From a virus (taxonomy: Duplodnaviria; Heunggongvirae; Uroviricota; Caudoviricetes), in the IMG/VR virus record IMGVR_UViG_2721755497_000002, positions 1-46,410 of that record: a stretch of DNA of 46,410 nucleotides; one strand, 5' to 3'. Positions within the stretch are counted from its first letter, which is position 1, and every line of letters starts with the position of its first letter. Positions 1 through 19,913 of this stretch are shown piece by piece. The translations under genes and the position numbers were made by a program. The notes beneath the pieces were generated by a model. It saw only the letters and a program-made list of their open reading frames with translations. It was not told the origin of the DNA and did not search any database.

Positions 1-798
1 TTAATGAACATTCGTCGCCGAAAACGAGTCTGTATCATTAGTGCGATGCAGTCTCTGCAAAGGATCTTGTTGATAAAATTGGCAGAAACGTTGCCACAAT
101 GAAGGGAAACGAGGAGCAAAAAGTTCTGGGGCGCTAAAGAAATATTCAGAAAGTACGGCAAAACATTCAGCAGGATCACTGGCAGCATAAGCATCAATGC
201 TCGCCGCATTCTCGCCAACCAATTCGATTTCTTCCTGAATGTTGTTCATTGCAGCATGAAGATCGTGTTCCCAGCCAGCAACCTCACGCAACGGAATAAA
301 GGGAACTCCGCTGGCGCGATCGCCGTTACGGGTGTCCAGCTTATGAGCGACTTCATGAATAATCAGGTTAAAACCAGAAGCATCAAAAGAATCTTGTATA
401 TCCAACCAGTTCAAAACGATAGGCCCTTGCTGCCAGCTCTGACCTGACTGAACAATACGTTGGTTATGCACCAGACCGATATCGTCTTCCCATTCATCAT
501 CGACCACAAATGGCGCAGGATAAATTAAGACTTCATGAAAACCATCCAGCCATTCCAGTCCTAACTCCAGAACGGGTAGGCAAAATAGAAGTGCTATCCG
601 GCAGCTTCTTAATGAATCCAGTTCAAAGCCCTGTAAAGGAACAAGCCGCTTTTGCTGTAAAAAACGTTCGGCAAGAGTGACTAATTTGCTTTGTTCCTGT
701 TCCGTCAGACACGTTAAAAGGGGGATCGATAGTGCTTCCTGCCAGGGAAGGGCAGTTTGATGTGCTGATTCTTGTACTTTCCAGGGCCACTTAATCAT
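1..798 (-). CDS. mtfA: MtfA (Mlc titration factor A, zinc peptidase-like); host gene flanking the prophage
   Basis: ORF 1..837 minus; translation matches MtfA end to end; likely start at internal Met (MIKWPWK...) giving 265 aa; zinc-binding HEVAH motif present; stop at window position 1-3. Confidence 0.85.
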
Positions 799-891
799 CG
801 TTTTGCTCGCAAACTCGTCACTTGAACAAAATTGCACGGACAGGGACTGTTAAAATGCCAAATTTCCTGGCATCATGGCAACCATCTGAAC

Positions 892-981
892 GGAGAGATG
901 CCGGAGCGGCTGAACGGACCGGTCTCGAAAACCGGAGTGGGGGCAACTCCACCGGGGGTTCAAATCCCCCTCTCTCCGCCA
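892..981 (+). tRNA. serU: tRNA-Ser, anticodon CGA; prophage integration target
   Basis: 90-nt sequence GGAGAGATGCCGGAGCGGCTGAACGG...TTCAAATCCCCCTCTCTCCGCCA with long variable arm, anticodon loop CTCGAAA, 3' CCA; sits between mtfA and the phage integrase. Confidence 0.9.
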
Positions 982-1063
982 AAATTCAATCACTTACACA
1001 TCATTAAGTCAGTGACAAAAATCACACTTGGAATTACTTGGAATATTTTCTTGGAATATTTTC
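982..1063. repeat. attL candidate: tRNA 3' flank with tandem direct repeats (CTTGGAAT x3, including TTGGAATATTTTC x2) overlapping the int 3' end; possible arm-type Int binding sites
   Basis: Direct repeats visible at about 1027-1063, immediately between the tRNA and the integrase stop codon. Confidence 0.3.
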
Positions 1064-2059
1064 AGGTAACGGGACATCAAGTGTTGGTGAAACTTTAACC
1101 TTCCTGTCATAGATTAGCACTTGCCCTTCGGTTTTGTGACCAGAGAAAAGTTGCTTATCCCGGCTGCTTCCTTCATAGTCTGAAATTCCTTTCGCCTTCA
1201 GATCATGAAAGGTGAAGTCGGATAAAATACCTGAAATTTTTCCAGCACGATTTCTTGCTTCTACCCACATTTCGTTAAAGCCTTTGTACATATATCGGTT
1301 GCCGTATTGATTGCTGATCACATAGGCAGATTTTGGTAACTGTTTTGCTTTTTCGATCGCTGCCTGTAATCGTGGACTCCATGCTTTTATCTGTTTTTTT
1401 CCGGTTTTCCCTTGCTGGATGAATATCCCGTCGTTTCCAATCTGTTCCCATTTCAGCGATAACACATCGGAAACCCTCGCTGCACACAGATAGGCAATTT
1501 CCATTGCGATAAAAACAGGAAGAGGTGCAACGCTTAATACTGCCTGGTATTCTTTGTCGGTTACATATCGTTCGCGGTTTTTGGCCTTGAATTTACTTAC
1601 ACCTGCACATGGGTTAGCCTTGACGTACCCTCGCTCATACCCCCAACTGTAAACACGGGACATACTGCTTTTTTCATGGTTGGCTTGCGTTTTACTCTGC
1701 TCCCCTCTTTTGTCCATGTATCGACGGATGTGTTCTGGTTTTATGGAATCCGCTGGTACCTTACCGAATACGGCAAGCAACTTTTTTTGATGTTGCAGAT
1801 AATCTTTTTGTGTTCTTGGACTAAGGTCACTGTAATAGGCGCTGGCGAGGAATTTTTCCCACAAGCGACCGAATGTCATTGCACGATCGCGATTATTTAC
1901 AGTTTCCTCATACTTTTTCCATAAAGCAGCTAAACCATCCTTGATGGCGGTTAGTGTGACAGATTCTCTGGATGTTGGTTTCCATACATAACTATATTTA
2001 TTTGGGTATACATTTGGAGGTAATTTTTCGTGTTCAGGATTTTTCCTTCGTCTTCCCAT
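1034..2059 (-). CDS. int: Tyrosine integrase, lambda Int family
   Basis: 341-aa ORF; N-terminus MGRRRK...LPPN resembles lambda Int; directly adjacent to the tRNA integration site. Confidence 0.9.
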   Translation of the reverse strand: MGRRRKNPEHEKLPPNVYPNKYSYVWKPTSRESVTLTAIKDGLAALWKKYEETVNNRDRAMTFGRLWEKFLASAYYSDLSPRTQKDYLQHQKKLLAVFGKVPADSIKPEHIRRYMDKRGEQSKTQANHEKSSMSRVYSWGYERGYVKANPCAGVSKFKAKNRERYVTDKEYQAVLSVAPLPVFIAMEIAYLCAARVSDVLSLKWEQIGNDGIFIQQGKTGKKQIKAWSPRLQAAIEKAKQLPKSAYVISNQYGNRYMYKGFNEMWVEARNRAGKISGILSDFTFHDLKAKGISDYEGSSRDKQLFSGHKTEGQVLIYDRKVKVSPTLDVPLPENIPRKYSK

Positions 2060-4855: not shown

Positions 4856-5047
4856 TTAAAATCCTGCCGGGATTTCGTTATTATCCTGGTGAATAACTTT
4901 ATCGACCGGATAACAGTTGCCTGGAATTTTCTGTTCGGTTGCTGCTGCCATACATTCCTGCATTGTTCTGTGAACACTGACTGCAATATCAACTGGCTCT
5001 CCGGAAACAAGAAAAACCGTCAGAATAAGTGCAAATACTGGATTCAT
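4856..5047 (-). CDS. ydfD: YdfD, small membrane lysis protein of the dicB operon
   Basis: Internal Met of ORF 4856..5101 gives 63 aa MNPVFALILTVFLVSGEPVD... matching YdfD as recalled; start overlaps dicB stop (ATGA). Confidence 0.75.
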   Translation of the reverse strand: MNPVFALILTVFLVSGEPVDIAVSVHRTMQECMAAATEQKIPGNCYPVDKVIHQDNNEIPAGF

Positions 5048-5232
5048 TGTGCACATCCCTTTGGCATCAGACGTAAACGGGCCAGCATTGAAACAATGCA
5101 TACTTTATTTAATAACTCCCGTTCGTGTTTTCTTTTGTTAATGGCATCTTCAGTAAATACAGGATTACTGATAGTGACACCAATTTCAAAACAACCTTCA
5201 GACGTATTAACGTTTGGTAATAACGTTTTCAT
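5044..5232 (-). CDS. dicB: DicB cell division inhibitor (MinC-activating)
   Basis: Internal Met of ORF 5044..5337 gives 62 aa MKTLLPNVNTSEGCFEIGVTISNPVFTEDAINKRK...MPKGCAQ, matching DicB of Qin prophage. Confidence 0.85.
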   Translation of the reverse strand: MKTLLPNVNTSEGCFEIGVTISNPVFTEDAINKRKHERELLNKVCIVSMLARLRLMPKGCAQ

Positions 5233-5406
5233 TATCGCGCCCTCAACAATGAGTTTTGTGATGCGGTGCCTGGTGCCTCCAGGTGACGTTAACCAGTTAA
5301 CAATTAACGCCGGATACAGAGAATCCACCCATAACACTGTTTTTGGTTTTAACTGTTCCGCGTGCGCTTAGTCGCATTCACCGCATCACAAAATTCACTT
5401 TAAAAA

Positions 5407-5459
5407 GGGCGGCAGAGCAGTCACGGAGTAAAACTGATACCGCCAAACGTCACCAGAAA
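5407..5459 (-). ncRNA. dicF: DicF small RNA (Hfq-dependent, represses ftsZ)
   Basis: Reverse complement reads TTTCTGGTGACGTTTGGCGGTATCAGTTTTACTCCGTGACTGCTCTGCCGCCC followed by a U-tract; lies between ydfC and dicB as in Qin. Confidence 0.8.
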
Positions 5460-5799
5460 ATTGATAACAGAGGGCGTTGCAGCGGGGTTGTCACTTAAGC
5501 GTATGGTCAACCTGACAACCCGGTGTCCTCAACGGGGAAGGAATAACCCCGCCATACTTACCGCCGCGTCATTTCGCGGAGTGCCACAACCGGAAGCGCA
5601 CGGTCGACGAAAATTTAACGACAGGCTATCTATGAACCAGCTACCTCGCCGTGCGCTTTCGCGTTATGGTCTGACTTTTCATGGAAATATCCTTTCAGTA
5701 AACTGTCAGTGCCGGATGCTCACCCGTGTCCGGCGCACGCACTCCACCTCACCCGTGGAGAACTCCTTAATTACCAACCTTAGCTTCGTTGGTTAGCTA

Positions 5800-6018
5800 T
5801 TAACGCGGGTATGTAATCATTCTGGCAATGCTTAATGCCGCTGCTTTTTCCAGATTGGTGATATCCTGCTCCAGAGCGGACAGATTTTCAGCCTGCTTAG
5901 CCCTGGCTTCATTGGCCCATTTCAGATCCTGCGCTGCATTAATTTTCTGGCGCATCCACTCATAAAGTTCATCATCGGTATAGTCTGGCGCGATGATGAC
6001 GGGTTCTCGTTTCTGCAT
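5800..6018 (-). CDS. ydfC: YdfC-like protein of the dicB operon
   Basis: 72-aa ORF MQKREPVIIAPDYTDDELYEWMRQKINAAQ... in the expected operon position. Confidence 0.7.
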   Translation of the reverse strand: MQKREPVIIAPDYTDDELYEWMRQKINAAQDLKWANEARAKQAENLSALEQDITNLEKAAALSIARMITYPR

Positions 6019-6047
6019 ACTGATTCCTCGCGGTGCTGCTTCGCTTA

Positions 6048-6176
6048 TCAGCCATTAGATTTTGCCGAACTGGAAAGCGCCTGTTTAAACTCACTGAAGC
6101 TGAGAGCTTCTTCGCCTTCGGCAAGGCCTTCGAAGTATTCTTCGTAAGCCTTTTCCATGACTGTGTTGAAATCCAT
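6048..6176 (-). CDS. ydfB: YdfB-like small protein (42 aa)
   Basis: Not in ORF track (under 60 aa); minus strand reads MDFNTVMEKAYEEYFEGLAEGEEALSFSEFKQALSSSAKSNG; adjacent to ydfA stop. Confidence 0.65.
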   Translation of the reverse strand: MDFNTVMEKAYEEYFEGLAEGEEALSFSEFKQALSSSAKSNG

Positions 6177-6177
6177 A

Positions 6178-6333
6178 TCACTCACCTGGATTTCTTTCTA
6201 GCCAGCGACGCGCGCCAGATTCGGTTTTAAACGTTTTACTTTTGGTATACGTCATCGCGGTGAACGTGCCGTCCTGGTTGGGAAACACGCCGTACACCAG
6301 AGATTCGTTGTTGCCAAGATCGATAGTATCCAT
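6178..6333 (-). CDS. ydfA: YdfA-like small protein (51 aa)
   Basis: Internal Met of ORF 6178..6414 gives MDTIDLGNNESLVYGVFPNQDGTFTAMTYTKSKTFKTESGARRWLERNPGE. Confidence 0.7.
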   Translation of the reverse strand: MDTIDLGNNESLVYGVFPNQDGTFTAMTYTKSKTFKTESGARRWLERNPGE

Positions 6334-6622
6334 GCTGACCTCATTTCCCCTTAACGCCGGGGTAGCGGAACAAAAACCTGCTGCATAGTTATTAAAGTTG
6401 AACCCTGCCGTCATGTTCTTACGCCTCGGGCTGGCTACTTAACCCCTGACCACTGCCTGGTAACTCGAAGTATTGCCCGGCGTTCTGTGGGGCGGGGTGG
6501 GTTGGTAGATTCAGTTTAATAAACATTAAACTGAAGTCAAGTAAAAACTAAATCATGGGGCGTAACAAACACAACGCTTTTGATAAAGTCGTTGCGGTTG
6601 TTATTTCTATTGGTAGTGAAAG

Positions 6623-6901
6623 TTAGGGAAACTGGCGTCTTGCGTGGATCACGTTTACTACTTCAACGCTTGATGTTGTTACGCGGTATAGAATTATATA
6701 GTTAGGGTGGGCCACAATCTCACGCAAGCCAGGTACTCTGTCGCTTGGTGGGTATAAATACGGATGTTCGGATAATGGCAGCACACAACCCCTTAATCGC
6801 TGCCATAAGCGTTCAGCCGCATCTACGTCGAAACGAGCAATATAACTAGTTATATCATCTAGGTCGGTATCTGCGCTTTCAAGCCATAACACGGGTAACA
6901 T
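6623..6901 (-). CDS. ParE/RelE-family type II toxin (candidate)
   Basis: About 92 aa from internal Met (MLPVLWLESADTDLDDITSYIARF...IHARRQFP); size and composition typical of ParE/RelE toxins; start is 1 nt after the stop of the upstream small gene. Confidence 0.65.
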   Translation of the reverse strand: MLPVLWLESADTDLDDITSYIARFDVDAAERLWQRLRGCVLPLSEHPYLYPPSDRVPGLREIVAHPNYIILYRVTTSSVEVVNVIHARRQFP

Positions 6902-6902
6902 T

Positions 6903-7094
6903 TTACTGCTTGCTCCGTTCCTTCCGCATTTTAGCAAAGCGTTCTGCCATTCTGCGCTCAACTTCGTCATGGGGAATTGCTGGGCGCGGATCTGCAAGGC
7001 TTGTTGCTACTTTCGCACGCAGCCATTCGTTGTAACTGTTTTCTTGTTCAATGGTTTCAAATTCAGAAACCATTGGTGAAAGGGCTCTATTCAT
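6903..7094 (-). CDS. Cognate antitoxin candidate (small DNA-binding protein)
   Basis: 63 aa from internal Met (MNRALSPMVSEFETIEQENSYNEWLRAK...); GGAGG Shine-Dalgarno 4 nt upstream; immediately upstream of and coupled to the toxin gene. Confidence 0.55.
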   Translation of the reverse strand: MNRALSPMVSEFETIEQENSYNEWLRAKVATSLADPRPAIPHDEVERRMAERFAKMRKERSKQ

Positions 7095-7114
7095 GTTTCC
7101 TCCGGTTTTATAAC

Positions 7115-7486
7115 TCAGGCGCGGCGGCATTTTTGCGCCGCAATCCATCTCGCTATGAGATCTTCCATTGATTCTTTTTTCTGCTTTAACTCGCTGATTA
7201 TCTGGCGTTGCTCATCCTCAGGGAAGGCTGAAAAAATCTGCAATAATTCCAGTTGATTAGACGTTAACCCTGCATGTGGTGGAGAAACCTCAGGTTGTTC
7301 TGCGTATTCCACATCTAGATACCCATCCGGCATCCCGTATGTTTGCTCTATTCTTCTGGCAGCCTTTTCTCCAAACGAGGCTCTCCCACTCATTAGTTGA
7401 GATAGGTAGCTCTTCTCTTTGGGTGGCAGAGTTTTATCTTTAAACCACTCCTTGAGACGTAAACGGCGAATTTCTTTTTTTTGCAT
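7115..7486 (-). CDS. Phage repressor, cI/DicA-like (HTH XRE family)
   Basis: 123 aa from internal Met MQKKEIRRLRLKEWF...; HTH region SYLSQLMSGRASFGEKAARRIEQ; divergent from the cro-like gene across an operator-rich spacer. Confidence 0.8.
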   Translation of the reverse strand: MQKKEIRRLRLKEWFKDKTLPPKEKSYLSQLMSGRASFGEKAARRIEQTYGMPDGYLDVEYAEQPEVSPPHAGLTSNQLELLQIFSAFPEDEQRQIISELKQKKESMEDLIARWIAAQKCRRA

Positions 7487-7582
7487 GTGGTAATTATCTT
7501 TAGTAATCACTAAACAAGCAAATACTTGACTTAATGGTTTATTAAACACTAAACTCGCAAAAAACACTAAACCGAGGAAGGT
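7487..7582. promoter_or_regulatory. Immunity-region divergent promoter/operator spacer with three ACTAAAC-containing direct repeats and a rightward TTGACT-N18-TAAACT promoter
   Basis: Repeats atcACTAAACaag, aacACTAAACtcg, aacACTAAACcga; sigma70-like -35/-10 upstream of the cro-like gene. Confidence 0.45.
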
Positions 7583-7885
7583 ATGACATTAAAAGAGTTT
7601 ATTAAATCATTGAGGGTTGGTGATGCTAAGAAATTCGCGGCCAGACTTGGTGTATCGCCATCTTACTTATCGCAAATGGCGTCTGGACGAGCAGCTATAT
7701 CTCCAACCCGCGCCCTTATGATCGAATCTGCTACGGAAGGCCAAGTAAGTAGGGCGGAGCTACGACCCCATGATTGGGAACTTATTTGGCCTGAGTATGC
7801 GAGCGGCATTCGTTTGGGGCAAACGCATGTAGTTCATGCTGAAGGTGATTGTAGTGCATGCTTATCTGATGGAGTTGATTCATGA
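7583..7885 (+). CDS. Cro-like HTH regulator (YdaS family)
   Basis: 100-aa ORF; HTH motif AARLGVSPSYLSQMASGRAAIS; first gene of the rightward early operon. Confidence 0.7.
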   Translation: MTLKEFIKSLRVGDAKKFAARLGVSPSYLSQMASGRAAISPTRALMIESATEGQVSRAELRPHDWELIWPEYASGIRLGQTHVVHAEGDCSACLSDGVDS

Positions 7886-8307
7886 AAATCAAGCATGAGC
7901 ATATTCGCATGGCGATGAATGCCTGGGCGCGTCCGGATGGTGAAAAAGTTCCGGTAGCCGAGATAACCAGGGTTTATTTCGAGCTGGGCATGACGTTTCC
8001 TGAGCTGTATGACGACAGCCATCCGGAAGCCCTGGCCCGTAATACCCAGAAAATTTTCCGCTGGGTGGAGAAAGACACCCCTGATGCGGTTGAAAAAATT
8101 CAGGCGTTACTGCCAGCGATCGAAAAGGCAATGCCGCCTTTGCTGGTGGCCAGAATGCGTAGTCACAGCTCAGCCTATTTCAGGGAGCTGCTGGAGACAC
8201 GAGAACGGCTGGTGAGAGACGCTGATGATTTTATCGCAGTGGCAATCGCCGGTTTCAATCAGATGAACCGTGGTGGCCCTGCAGGAAATATTGTGGCTGT
8301 GCATTGA
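7882..8307 (+). CDS. YdaT-family protein (CII-like functional analogue)
   Basis: 141-aa ORF overlapping the cro-like stop; size and position match Rac YdaT. Confidence 0.6.
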   Translation: MKIKHEHIRMAMNAWARPDGEKVPVAEITRVYFELGMTFPELYDDSHPEALARNTQKIFRWVEKDTPDAVEKIQALLPAIEKAMPPLLVARMRSHSSAYFRELLETRERLVRDADDFIAVAIAGFNQMNRGGPAGNIVAVH

Positions 8308-8372
8308 CTCGCAATATTCATACCGGATCACTTCCGGCAATTTGTGAGTAAAAAGATTCGGTATCAAAAGAG

Positions 8373-13821: not shown

Positions 13822-14088
13822 TTTTATACCTTTTGTGTTGTGTGAACGATGAGTATAGTCAGAAATGAGACTGTGAAGGGGGATAGAAAATAATAGTTTG
13901 TTTTTGTAGAATCGCTGCGGGTGCTTGGGGCTATCTGTCTCAGGCATGAACACCAAAAGGCAGATAGAGAAAAGCCCCAGTTAACATTACGCGTCCGGCA
14001 AGACGCTTAACATTAATCTGAGGCCATATCTATGACTTGCACGCGTAGGTTAGCCTCTTACGTGCCGAAAGGCAAGGAGAAGCAGGCT

Positions 14089-14244
14089 ATGAAGCAGCAA
14101 AAGGCGATGTTAATCGCCCTGATCGTCATCTGTTTAACCGTCATAGTGACGGCACTGGTAACGAGGAAAGACCTCTGCGAGGTACGAATCCGAACCGGCC
14201 AGACGGAGGTCGCTGTCTTCACAGTCTACGAACCTGAGGAGTAA
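14089..14244 (+). CDS. hokD: Hok/Gef-family type I toxin
   Basis: Internal Met of ORF 14032..14244 gives MKQQKAMLIALIVICLTVIVTALVTRKDLCEVRIRTGQTEVAVFTVYEPEE, a near match to HokD/RelF as recalled; upstream in-frame extension is consistent with a mok-like leader. Confidence 0.8.
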   Translation: MKQQKAMLIALIVICLTVIVTALVTRKDLCEVRIRTGQTEVAVFTVYEPEE

Positions 14245-18243: not shown

Positions 18244-18319
18244 GGCCCTTTAGCTCAGTGGTGAGAGCGAGCGACTCATAATCGCCAGGTCGCTGGTTCA
18301 AATCCAGCAAGGGCCACCA
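18244..18319 (+). tRNA. tRNA with CAU anticodon (Met or lysidine-dependent Ile2; ileZ-like phage tRNA)
   Basis: 76 nt GGCCCTTTAGCTCAGTGGTGAGAGC...ACTCATAATCG...GGTTCAAATCCAGCAAGGGCCACCA; canonical cloverleaf. Confidence 0.8.
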
Positions 18320-18326
18320 TCTCATA

Positions 18327-18403
18327 CCGCCATTAGCTCATCGGGACAGAGCGCCAGCCTTCGAAGCTGGCGGCGCGGGGTTCGGGTCCTCGATGGCGGT
18401 CCA
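18327..18403 (+). tRNA. tRNA-Arg, anticodon UCG (argN-like phage tRNA)
   Basis: 77 nt; acceptor CCGCCAT/ATGGCGG, anticodon loop CTTCGAA, T-arm CGGGG-TTCGGGT-CCTCG, CCA end. Confidence 0.75.
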
Positions 18404-18416
18404 TTATCTGCACCAT

Positions 18417-18490
18417 GCGGTCATCGTATAATGGCTATTGCATCAGCCTTCCTGGCTGATTATGCGGGGCAATTCCCGCTGACCGCTCCA
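18417..18490 (+). tRNA. tRNA-like element, argO-like but degenerate (non-canonical anticodon loop CTTCCTG and shortened T-loop GCAATT)
   Basis: Acceptor GCGGTCA/TGACCGC with CCA end; anticodon and T-loops deviate from consensus; may be a pseudo-tRNA. Confidence 0.4.
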
Positions 18491-19104: not shown

Positions 19105-19304
19105 TTCTACATCTTTGCAGTAAACAATAATCATAATTGCATGTTTTTTCTGTGGTGGGGCATTTGGCTTCTGTTGCCTGCGATGTATTGTGGACCTGGT
19201 ATCAGCCTGCAGAAAATGCACACAGGTGTGAAGTGTTAAATTCCTCACAACTCAGAACGCAGAATGTTGTCCTGCTTGCGGGGAATTTGTTAAAAGAGTA
19301 CAGC

Positions 19305-19423
19305 ATGGTGAATCCCCCTGAGCGGAGGGGCATAATGACAGATGTTTGGTCGTGTTATCGTATAGGCAAGTTGCGGATTCTGTCTGGTCATTGCAGAATT
19401 CACCGGGAGGCACCCGGCACCAT
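19305..19423. repeat. Repeat unit copy 1 (about 119 bp): ATGGTGAATCCCCCTGAGCGGAGGGGC ... CACCGGGAGGCACCCGGCACCAT with two GC-rich hairpins
   Basis: Termini shared with copy 2 and mutually reverse-complementary (ATGGTG / CACCAT). Confidence 0.45.
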
Positions 19424-19558
19424 GTATTTTCAATATGTTATTGATCATTCTCTTTTTCGGAATACTCTGGTTATGTTTTCCTGTAACTGATAATTAAATC
19501 ACATTTTGTGTAACTGCATATTGTCTGAACGGGATAAGTTTCAGTATCTTCTGAATGT

Positions 19559-19678
19559 ATGGCGAATCCCCCTGTGCGGCGGGGCGTACTGATTTAAGTA
19601 GTCATCCAAGAATGCAGCTGAATGAAAACGCGCTCCATATTAATCAGTGGTGGAGCACCGGGAGGCACCCGGCGCCAT
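19559..19678. repeat. Repeat unit copy 2 (about 120 bp): ATGGCGAATCCCCCTGTGCGGCGGGGC ... CACCGGGAGGCACCCGGCGCCAT
   Basis: Same terminal hairpin modules as copy 1, divergent interior. Confidence 0.45.
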
Positions 19679-19707
19679 ACCGATGATGAAAGTAAATGCG
19701 TCCATCC

Positions 19708-19732
19708 GCCCCTCTCCGGAGGGGCTTTTTTA
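19708..19732 (+). terminator. Strong rho-independent terminator (GCCCCTCtccgGAGGGGC + TTTTTT) upstream of nanS-p
   Basis: 7-bp GC stem, 4-nt loop, T-tract. Confidence 0.6.
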
Positions 19733-19913
19733 TGGGCAAAAAAAGCCCGCTACGAATGGTAACGGGCTGCACAAAATAACAAAATGTGAAGTATTCTAAT
19801 CAGCCGCTGAATAATACCCGACAGTAATTAATCTGTGCAACGGTGCTTTTTCCCGCCTTGCAGGCACCGACTCTCTCATTTGATTTAACGCATTATCCCG
19901 TCCGGGAGGATTC

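What the first reader, a model, noticed from the sequence alone, without database searches (positions are those of the whole stretch)
6623..7094. ParE/RelE-like toxin-antitoxin pair co-oriented downstream of the repressor, in the lambda rexAB position
Two small overlapping genes (63 aa, then 92 aa) follow the cI-like repressor on the same strand, the arrangement of cI-rexA-rexB in lambda. The distal product has the size and character of ParE/RelE toxins; the proximal one has a strong Shine-Dalgarno and looks like a small DNA-binding antitoxin. Expression from the lysogenic promoter would make this a lysogen-expressed addiction or abortive-infection module. The assignment rests on sequence character, not a search.
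Basis: partly seen in the sequence, partly recalled or inferred. Interest (0 to 1): 0.7.

Follow-up and report, generated by a model that had tools for sequence, protein, structure and literature searches.

The report
Known paaR2-paaA2-parE2 prophage toxin-antitoxin module

Summary
On the minus strand, a 63-aa ORF (6903..7094) and a 92-aa ORF (6623..6901) follow a 123-aa repressor gene (7115..7486). They are separated by one base (TAA-A-ATG) and do not overlap.

The pair is the published PaaA2-ParE2 toxin-antitoxin system of E. coli O157:H7 prophage CP-933P:
- The toxin is 91/92 identical to crystallised ParE2 (PDB 5CW7).
- The antitoxin is 62/62 identical to PaaA2 (PDB 3ZBE).
- The repressor is 97% identical to PaaR2.

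The surrounding switch is also conserved: the PRM/PR operator region, ydaS (Cro analogue), ydaT (CII analogue), its TTGATT-N6-AATCAA site, and a PL-like promoter just downstream of parE2.

Published work already shows that PaaR2 is a leaderless CI analogue co-transcribed with the pair. It shows that the locus is bistable and addictive, and it states that paaA2-parE2 "replace rexA and rexB". An abortive-infection role is untested.

The pair occurs in 633 of 5426 complete E. coli genomes and is routinely annotated there. Verdict: correct, ordinary, already known.

The parts
6623..6901 (-). parE2: 92-aa ParE-family toxin
   Evidence: Translation. Pfam PF05016 ParE_toxin, E 8.3e-17, 62 bits against a cut-off of 23. 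91/92 identical (V26 here, I26 in O157) to PDB 5cw7_B/5cze/5czf 'Plasmid stabilization protein ParE'. PGAP annotates it as 'RelE/ParE family toxin' in the identical strain M3 locus.
6903..7094 (-). paaA2: 63-aa antitoxin with no DNA-binding domain; GGAGG Shine-Dalgarno 4 nt before the ATG
   Evidence: Translation. Pfam PF21217 PaaA2, 70.7 bits against a cut-off of 27. 62/62 identical to PDB 3zbe_A PAAA2. NCBIfam NF050103, 84 bits. The absence of a DNA-binding motif is stated in PMC8630535.
7115..7486 (-). paaR2: 123-aa CI-analogue repressor, the third component and first gene of the operon; leaderless in the O157 orthologue
   Evidence: Translation. Residues 1-65 match PDB 7nkv/8c3k/8c3l 'Phage repressor protein CI' with two substitutions. 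97% identical over the full length to the O157 copy; the four substitutions all lie at residues 54-67. The C-terminus resembles the DicA C-terminus, E 1e-6. The published N-terminus MQKKE and leaderless start are in PMC8630535.
7487..7582 (.). OR-type operator region holding divergent PRM933P-like and PR933P-like promoters and GTTTAGTAA-type inverted repeats
   Evidence: 96 bp here against 97 bp in O157. The sequence is identical apart from one A missing from an A-run. PR is TTGACT-18-TAAACT at 7526..7555. Repeat half-sites lie at 7498-7515 and 7537-7547. Footprints and operators in the orthologue are in PMC8630535. PRM (TTGCTT-17-GATAAT, 6 nt before the A of the paaR2 ATG) is my own reading of the sequence.
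7583..7885 (+). ydaS: Cro analogue (HTH_XRE)
   Evidence: Pfam YdaS_toxin 46 bits, HTH_3, weak P22_Cro. PHROG 35 transcriptional repressor. Function in the orthologue is in PMC8630535.
7882..8307 (+). ydaT: CII analogue
   Evidence: Pfam YdaT_toxin 39.5 bits. PHROG 163 CII-like activator, E 1e-43. Function in the orthologue is in PMC9986795.
7875..7892 (+). YdaT primary binding site (OM), TTGATTCATGAAAATCAA, at the ydaS/ydaT junction, next to the PRE-like alternative start for the leftward operon
   Evidence: The only match in the window to TTGATTN6AATCAA. The motif is defined by footprinting in PMC9986795.
6513..6540 (-). PL933P-like promoter, TTGACT-16-TAAACT, with the same hexamers as PR, 83 bp downstream of the parE2 stop and reading leftward into ydfA-ydfB-ydfC/dicF/dicB
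   Evidence: Promoter scan. A GTTTAATAAAC palindrome overlaps it at 6514-6524. The region is conserved in O157 and phage Evi. PL933P with hexamers identical to PR933P is described in PMC8630535.
6563..6603 (-). Stem-loop between the parE2 stop and PL; a possible but weak transcript end
   Evidence: The RNA fold centroid has a 17-pair hairpin, z = -2.29 against shuffles. No adjacent U-run, and the terminator scan did not call it. This is inference only.

Best explanation
This is the paaR2-paaA2-parE2 ('RAE2') three-component type II toxin-antitoxin operon, embedded in the immunity region of a CP-933P-type lambdoid prophage of E. coli. PaaR2, a CI analogue translated from a leaderless mRNA, is transcribed leftward from a PRM-like promoter together with paaA2 and parE2. 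PaaR2 represses the divergent PR (ydaS and ydaT, the Cro and CII analogues) and a PL-like promoter just beyond parE2. YdaS competes for the same operators, which makes the switch bistable. YdaT activates an alternative PRE-like start from its TTGATT-N6-AATCAA site. ParE2 is a ParE-fold toxin that triggers the SOS response and probably acts on a topoisomerase, although its exact target is unknown. PaaA2 is a short, protease-labile (ClpAP/ClpXP) antitoxin with no DNA-binding domain, and it neutralises ParE2 by wrapping around it. Because the antitoxin decays faster than the toxin, cells that lose the locus are poisoned. The most likely role is therefore addiction: stabilising the prophage, and specifically its immunity region, in lysogens. 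What I showed here is sequence identity, gene order and conservation of the cis elements. The regulation, toxicity, proteolysis and addiction are shown in the literature for the O157 orthologue. Their transfer to this copy is inference from 97-100% protein identity and a near-identical operator region.
For: Identity: ParE2 is 91/92 identical to PDB 5CW7. PaaA2 is 62/62 identical to 3ZBE. The PaaR2 N-terminal domain matches 7NKV/8C3K, and the full-length protein is 97% identical to the O157 copy. Families: Pfam ParE_toxin, PaaA2, YdaS and YdaT hits are all above cut-off. Cis elements: the OR region is identical to O157 except for 1 bp. The PR and PL promoters share the hexamers TTGACT/TAAACT, and PL is conserved. 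There is a single YdaT site, at the ydaS/ydaT junction. Literature: PMC8630535 covers the CI-like, leaderless PaaR2, operator footprints, PL933P, bistability and mini-F stabilisation as efficient as ccdAB. PMC9986795 states that paaA2-parE2 replace rexA/rexB. PMC4803016 describes co-transcription from the promoter upstream of paaR. Population data: the pair is present in 633 of 5426 complete E. coli genomes, 594 of them at >=95% identity. The paaR2-ydaS region is present in 593, all at >=95%. By counts, then, the pair and this immunity type travel together.
Against: Nothing was tested on this copy itself. In the O157 orthologue, single-cell assays found no ParE2 activation in either switch state. 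The authors therefore call the biological role open and present stabilisation of the immunity region as a proposal. The molecular target of ParE2 is not established. An earlier report, summarised in PMC4803016, says the PaaA-ParE complex itself partly represses the promoter, so the statement that the antitoxin plays no role in regulation is not absolute. The linkage between the pair and the immunity type rests on counts from two separate searches, not on a per-genome cross-table.
Confidence: 0.93

Rival explanations
1. The pair is a lysogen-expressed anti-phage abortive-infection or exclusion module, a functional analogue of lambda RexAB. An infecting phage would shut off host transcription or trigger degradation of PaaA2, which would free ParE2 to kill or arrest the cell. 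This is compatible with the addiction role and does not exclude it.
For: The pair occupies the rexAB slot between the repressor gene and PL. It is transcribed in both switch states in the orthologue. PaaA2 is labile to ClpAP/ClpXP. From general knowledge, other type II toxin-antitoxin systems and repressor-adjacent prophage genes are known defence genes.
Against: None of the five proteins gave a significant PADLOC hit; the only match was a weak HTH model on YdaS, E 0.007. None of the retrieved papers on this system reports a phage-challenge phenotype. The authors of the main study propose genome stabilisation instead.
Confidence: 0.15
2. The pair is a canonical two-component ParD/ParE or RelB/RelE module, with the antitoxin binding its own promoter. 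This is what the reader implied by 'small DNA-binding antitoxin'. The upstream repressor would then be an unrelated phage gene.
For: PGAP and NCBIfam name the antitoxin 'RelB family antitoxin'. The gene order, antitoxin then toxin, is typical. The PaaA-ParE complex has been reported to repress the promoter partially.
Against: At E<=0.01 the antitoxin's only Pfam hit is PaaA2, with no ParD, RHH or RelB DNA-binding family. The identical protein is described as lacking any DNA-binding motif. Only 20 nt separate paaR2 from paaA2, and no promoter or terminator was called in that spacer. Co-transcription from the paaR promoter is published.
Confidence: 0.03
3. The toxin is a RelE-type ribosome-dependent mRNA interferase, not a ParE-type toxin.
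For: There is a weak NCBIfam RelE_StbE match at 22.2 bits. ParE and RelE share a fold.
Against: The RelE_StbE score is below its cut-off of 27.9. The nearest solved relatives after ParE2 itself are ParE toxins, 3KXE and 6X0A. The orthologue colocalises with the nucleoid and induces SOS.
Confidence: 0.03

Closest known systems
paaR2-paaA2-parE2 (RAE2) of cryptic prophage CP-933P / Sp12, E. coli O157:H7 (Hallez 2010; Sterckx 2014, 2016; Jurenas 2021, PMC8630535)
   Same: Same three genes, order and strand. PaaA2 is 100% identical, ParE2 99% and PaaR2 97%. The same divergent ydaS-ydaT pair is present, the operator region is the same apart from 1 bp, and the PL-like promoter and YdaT site are the same.
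   Different: ParE2 has V26 where O157 has I26. PaaR2 has four substitutions in the 54-67 linker. The OR spacer is 96 bp, not 97 bp. The prophage backbone and insertion site differ: here it sits next to mtfA/tRNA-Ser, and the leftward PL operon is a Qin-like ydfA-ydfB-ydfC-dicF-dicB set. In O157 it sits beside ynfA/ynfB, and several of its replication genes are frameshifted.
paaR1-paaA1-parE1 of CP-933M, E. coli O157:H7
   Same: It is a paralogous three-component ParE system in a prophage.
   Different: It is a separate specificity group: PaaA1 does not neutralise ParE2 and vice versa. The window copy is of the '2' type by near-identity. I did not retrieve the '1' sequences for direct comparison.
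Lambda cI-rexA-rexB
   Same: The position matches: immediately downstream of the repressor gene and upstream of PL. The pair is co-transcribed with the repressor in lysogens.
   Different: There is no sequence relationship; the Pfam hits are ParE_toxin and PaaA2 only. From general knowledge, RexAB is an exclusion/abortive-infection system, whereas this pair has been shown to be an addiction module with no demonstrated exclusion.
Classical ParD-ParE modules (RK2; Caulobacter ParDE1, PDB 3KXE; Vibrio cholerae ParDE2)
   Same: The toxin fold and family are the same (3KXE at E 2.7e-5; Pfam PF05016). The antitoxin neutralises the toxin by direct binding.
   Different: The antitoxin lacks the ribbon-helix-helix DNA-binding domain, and transcription is controlled by a separate repressor and the prophage switch. 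Gyrase has not been shown to be the target of ParE2.
Omega-epsilon-zeta of pSM19035
   Same: It is a three-component type II toxin-antitoxin system in which a separate regulator gene heads the operon.
   Different: The proteins are unrelated, the system is plasmid-borne, and its regulator is not a phage immunity repressor.

Membership tests
ParE toxin family (Pfam PF05016; RelE/ParE superfamily) | Profile match above the curated cut-off over the full domain | tested here: met
   62 bits against a cut-off of 23, covering profile positions 1-89 of 89.
ParE toxin family (Pfam PF05016; RelE/ParE superfamily) | ParE/RelE fold | tested here: met
   91/92 identical to the crystallised ParE2 chains 5cw7_B, 5cze and 5czf. 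The next hits are the ParE toxins 3kxe and 6x0a. No new structure prediction was needed.
ParE toxin family (Pfam PF05016; RelE/ParE superfamily) | Toxicity when expressed alone, with SOS induction or topoisomerase poisoning | not testable with these tools
   Reported for the 99%-identical O157 protein. The target is still unknown.
PaaA2 antitoxin family (Pfam PF21217) | Profile match above cut-off, with the gene immediately upstream of a parE gene | tested here: met
   70.7 bits against a cut-off of 27. 62/62 identical to 3zbe_A. One base separates it from parE2.
PaaA2 antitoxin family (Pfam PF21217) | No DNA-binding domain | tested here: met
   No RHH, ParD, RelB or HTH Pfam family at E<=0.01. 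The literature says the same for the identical protein.
paaR-paaA-parE three-component system | A regulator gene (paaR) heads the operon, on the same strand and closely spaced | tested here: met
   paaR2 lies at 7115..7486(-), 20 nt upstream of paaA2. It is 97% identical to O157 PaaR2.
paaR-paaA-parE three-component system | Conserved PRM/PR operator region, with a leaderless paaR2 start | tested here: met
   The intergenic region is identical to O157 apart from 1 bp, and the protein begins MQKKE as in the sequenced O157 protein. Leaderless transcription itself was not testable.
paaR-paaA-parE three-component system | Co-transcription of the three genes and post-segregational killing | not testable with these tools
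   Shown for the orthologue. Here, no promoter or terminator consensus was called in the paaR2-paaA2 spacer.
CP-933P-type lambdoid immunity region | Divergent ydaS (Cro analogue) and ydaT (CII analogue), a YdaT operator and a PL-like promoter beyond the toxin-antitoxin pair | tested here: met
   Pfam YdaS and YdaT hits. TTGATTCATGAAAATCAA at 7875-7892. TTGACT-16-TAAACT at 6540..6513 on the minus strand.
Lambda RexA/RexB | Sequence homology to RexA or RexB | tested here: not met
   Pfam gives only ParE_toxin and PaaA2. The analogy is positional, not membership.
Known anti-phage defence systems (PADLOC-DB v2) | Match to a defence-system protein model | tested here: not met
   No hit for the toxin, antitoxin or repressor.
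RelE/StbE mRNA interferase (NCBIfam TIGR02385) | Score at or above the curated cut-off | tested here: not met
   22.2 bits against a cut-off of 27.9.

The most novel reading that the evidence does not exclude
In this near-complete prophage, and in the isolated temperate coliphage Evi that carries the same module, the lysogen-expressed PaaA2-ParE2 pair could act as a RexAB-like abortive-infection or superinfection-exclusion system against heterologous phages, as well as being an addiction module. The published work used a defective O157 prophage and did not report phage challenge, so my evidence does not exclude this.
Probability: 0.15. Interest if true: 0.45.

Novelty: already known. Interest (0 to 1): 0.08.

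Why it matters
It matters little as a discovery. The system has been named since 2010, its structures are solved, its regulation has been dissected, and NCBI's pipeline annotates it routinely in about 12% of complete E. coli genomes.

Three modest points come out of this copy:
- The module, with an intact switch, sits in a prophage that still carries a nearly full set of structural and lysis genes. It also sits in an isolated temperate coliphage (Evi). It is therefore not confined to the defective O157 prophage in which it was studied.
- By counts, the pair and the PaaR2/YdaS immunity type are essentially always found together. That fits the published idea that the pair protects the immunity region.
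- Whether a toxin-antitoxin pair in the rexAB slot also excludes other phages is an open question that could be tested directly.

Tried and rejected
- **PADLOC defence models:** scanning all five proteins gave nothing apart from a marginal HTH match on YdaS.
- **Literature on abortive infection:** a search combining paaA, parE, abortive infection and prophage returned only reviews and papers on other ParE systems. None tested this pair against phages.
- **Gyrase as target:** I looked in a gyrase-inhibitor review (PMC10886550) for a statement that E. coli ParE2 targets gyrase. It only cites the structural papers, so I leave the target as unknown, as.
- **Terminator after parE2:** the terminator scan found none between parE2 and PL. 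A fold of that spacer gives a moderate hairpin without a U-tract, which I list only as a weak candidate.
- **Longer toxin ORF:** I rejected the 124-aa TTG-start version, which would give a true overlap. The crystallised protein starts at the ATG, and the Pfam domain covers residues 4-91 of the 92-aa form.
- **Operator motif window-wide:** the GTTTAGTAA consensus at one mismatch is not significantly enriched across the whole window (12 matches against 5.7 expected; 3 of 100 shuffles reach 12). Only the clustering at 7498-7547 and 6514-6524 is meaningful.

Full report
**1. Observation**

The region 6623-7094 holds two minus-strand ORFs of exactly the stated sizes:
- a 63-aa ORF at 6903..7094 (MNRALSPMVSEFETIEQENSYNEWLRAKVATSLADPRPAIPHDEVERRMAERFAKMRKERSKQ);
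- a 92-aa ORF at 6623..6901 (MLPVLWLESADTDLDD...HARRQFP).

They follow a 123-aa repressor gene at 7115..7486 on the same strand. The proximal gene has a GGAGG Shine-Dalgarno four bases before its ATG (read).

The only inaccuracy is the word "overlapping". The junction is TAA-A-ATG, so one base separates the stop from the start. An overlap exists only for the mechanical 124-aa ORF that begins at a TTG, and that is not the characterised protein.

**2. What it is**

A sequence search of the Protein Data Bank settles the identity:
- The 92-aa product is 91/92 identical to the crystallised ParE2 toxin of E. coli O157 (5CW7, 5CZE, 5CZF; E 1e-59). The next relatives are the ParE toxins 3KXE and 6X0A.
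- The 63-aa product is 62/62 identical to PaaA2 (3ZBE, 5CW7).
- The N-terminal domain of the upstream repressor matches 7NKV/8C3K/8C3L, "Phage repressor protein CI".

Pfam agrees:
- ParE_toxin, 62 bits against a cut-off of 23.
- PaaA2, 70.7 bits against a cut-off of 27.
- The divergent genes at 7583..7885 and 7882..8307 are YdaS and YdaT family members.

PHROGs calls the last of these a CII-like activator. NCBIfam names the antitoxin with its "RelB family" model. It also shows that the C-terminus of the repressor resembles that of DicA.

**3. Source and spread**

The window is 100% identical over the 2.5-kb query (5800-8310) to a prophage of the mouse E. coli strains M1 and M3. That prophage is inserted next to mtfA and a tRNA-Ser gene.

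PGAP already annotates the pair there as a RelE/ParE-family toxin and a RelB-family antitoxin.

- The pair occurs in 633 of 5426 complete E. coli genomes, 594 of them at 95% identity or more.
- The paaR2-ydaS stretch occurs in 593 genomes, all at 95% or more, EDL933 among them.

By counts, the pair and this immunity type are found together. I could not build a per-genome table.

Only one record in the phage collection carries the module: Escherichia phage Evi, at 98.4% identity. Its parE2 ORF is intact but not annotated. Evi is described as a coliphage isolated from infant faeces (PMC10910852).

**4. Anatomy of the switch in this window**

I compared the window with an O157:H7 genome (ATCC 43894, locus L004).
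- PaaR2 is 97% identical. All four substitutions lie in the 54-67 linker.
- The paaR2-ydaS intergenic region is identical except for one A missing from an A-run, giving 96 bp against the published 97 bp.
- A PR-like promoter, TTGACT-18-TAAACT, lies at 7526..7555. A promoter with the same hexamers, TTGACT-16-TAAACT, lies at 6540..6513 on the minus strand, 83 bp beyond the parE2 stop. Its region is conserved in O157 and Evi. This matches the published PL933P.
- GTTTAGTAA-type half-sites cluster at 7498-7515, 7537-7547 and 6514-6524.
- The single window match to the YdaT operator, TTGATTN6AATCAA, sits at 7875-7892 on the ydaS/ydaT junction, as published.
- No promoter or terminator consensus falls in the 20-nt paaR2-paaA2 spacer.

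**5. How it works**

These points are shown in the literature for the orthologue and are inferred for this copy.

*Regulation*
- PaaR2 is a functional CI analogue. It is translated from a leaderless mRNA that starts at its ATG.
- PaaR2 and YdaS bind overlapping operators over PRM and PR, and both repress PL.
- YdaT activates an alternative start for the leftward operon.
- The locus is bistable.

*The toxin-antitoxin pair*
- PaaA2 has no DNA-binding motif and is degraded by ClpAP and ClpXP.
- ParE2 colocalises with the nucleoid and induces SOS, and its target is unknown.

*Role*
- The locus stabilises an unstable mini-F plasmid as well as ccdAB does.
- No toxin activation is seen at steady state in either switch state.
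- The authors propose that the pair protects the immunity region against loss or recombinational replacement.

**6.

- The antitoxin is not a DNA-binding protein. An older report does say the PaaA-ParE complex gives partial repression.
- The system is three-component, and the "cI-like repressor" is itself the named third component.
- The abortive-infection idea is untested. There is no PADLOC hit and no phage-challenge data in the papers retrieved.
- The genes abut; they do not overlap.

**7. Comparison and novelty**

This is a member of the paaR2-paaA2-parE2 system. All the sequence-level defining features that I tested were met.

It works like a ParDE addiction module, but with regulation handed over to a phage immunity switch. 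It is a positional analogue of lambda rexAB and not a homologue.

Novelty: already known. Interest is low.

The residual open reading is a RexAB-like exclusion role. I rate it at about 0.15, and of moderate interest if true.

Noticed in passing
window 4856-6333 (-): ydfD 4856-5047, dicB 5044-5232, DicF RNA 5407-5458, ydfC 5800-6018, ydfB 6048-6176, ydfA 6178-6333: The leftward operon driven by the PL-like promoter is a Qin-type ydfA-ydfB-ydfC-dicF-dicB-ydfD set (Rfam DicF at 76.7 bits; PGAP names from the identical strain M3). The PaaR2 switch here would therefore also control a cell-division inhibitor and the DicF sRNA. The C-terminus of PaaR2 resembles that of DicA.
   Followed up: partly
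window 13919-14244 (+) and 43816-43956 (+): The same prophage carries two type I Hok-family toxin loci. One is a sok/hokD locus (Rfam sok at 111.5 bits, 13919-14094; hokD CDS about 14089-14244). The other is a second Hok/Gef-family CDS between the tail-tip J gene and the tail fibre. The element therefore carries three toxin-antitoxin loci.
   Followed up: no
window 19274-19478 and 19529-19737 (+): Two tandem copies of the sRNA family STnc100 (118.9 and 98.5 bits) lie downstream of the Q antiterminator, the tRNA cluster and the 'tolA' CDS, and ahead of the lysis genes.
   Followed up: no
window 18244-18490 (+): There is a phage tRNA cluster after the Q antiterminator. ARAGORN finds a CAT-anticodon tRNA, which PGAP calls Ile, and tRNA-Arg(TCG). 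PGAP annotates a third, tRNA-Gly, at about 18417-18490, but neither ARAGORN nor Rfam called it.
   Followed up: partly
window 1009-2059 (-) and 44098-45505 (+): In the identical M3 locus, PGAP marks the integrase and a tail-fibre gene as frameshifted. In the window the integrase ORF reads 341 aa (1034..2059). All other head, tail, lysis and replication genes look intact. The prophage may be only mildly defective, unlike CP-933P, where several replication genes are frameshifted.
   Followed up: partly
L003 (phage Evi, LR597642.1) 5001-5279 (-): The deposited annotation of phage Evi omits the intact 92-aa parE2 ORF, which is identical to O157 ParE2, while annotating paaA2 and paaR2 as hypothetical protein and regulator. 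A toxin gene is therefore missing from that record's annotation.
   Followed up: yes
window 1-981: The window starts inside host DNA. An mtfA-like ORF runs off the left end (1..837, minus strand), and tRNA-Ser(CGA) lies at 892-981. The integrase gene begins right after the tRNA, so this tRNA is probably the attachment site.
   Followed up: no
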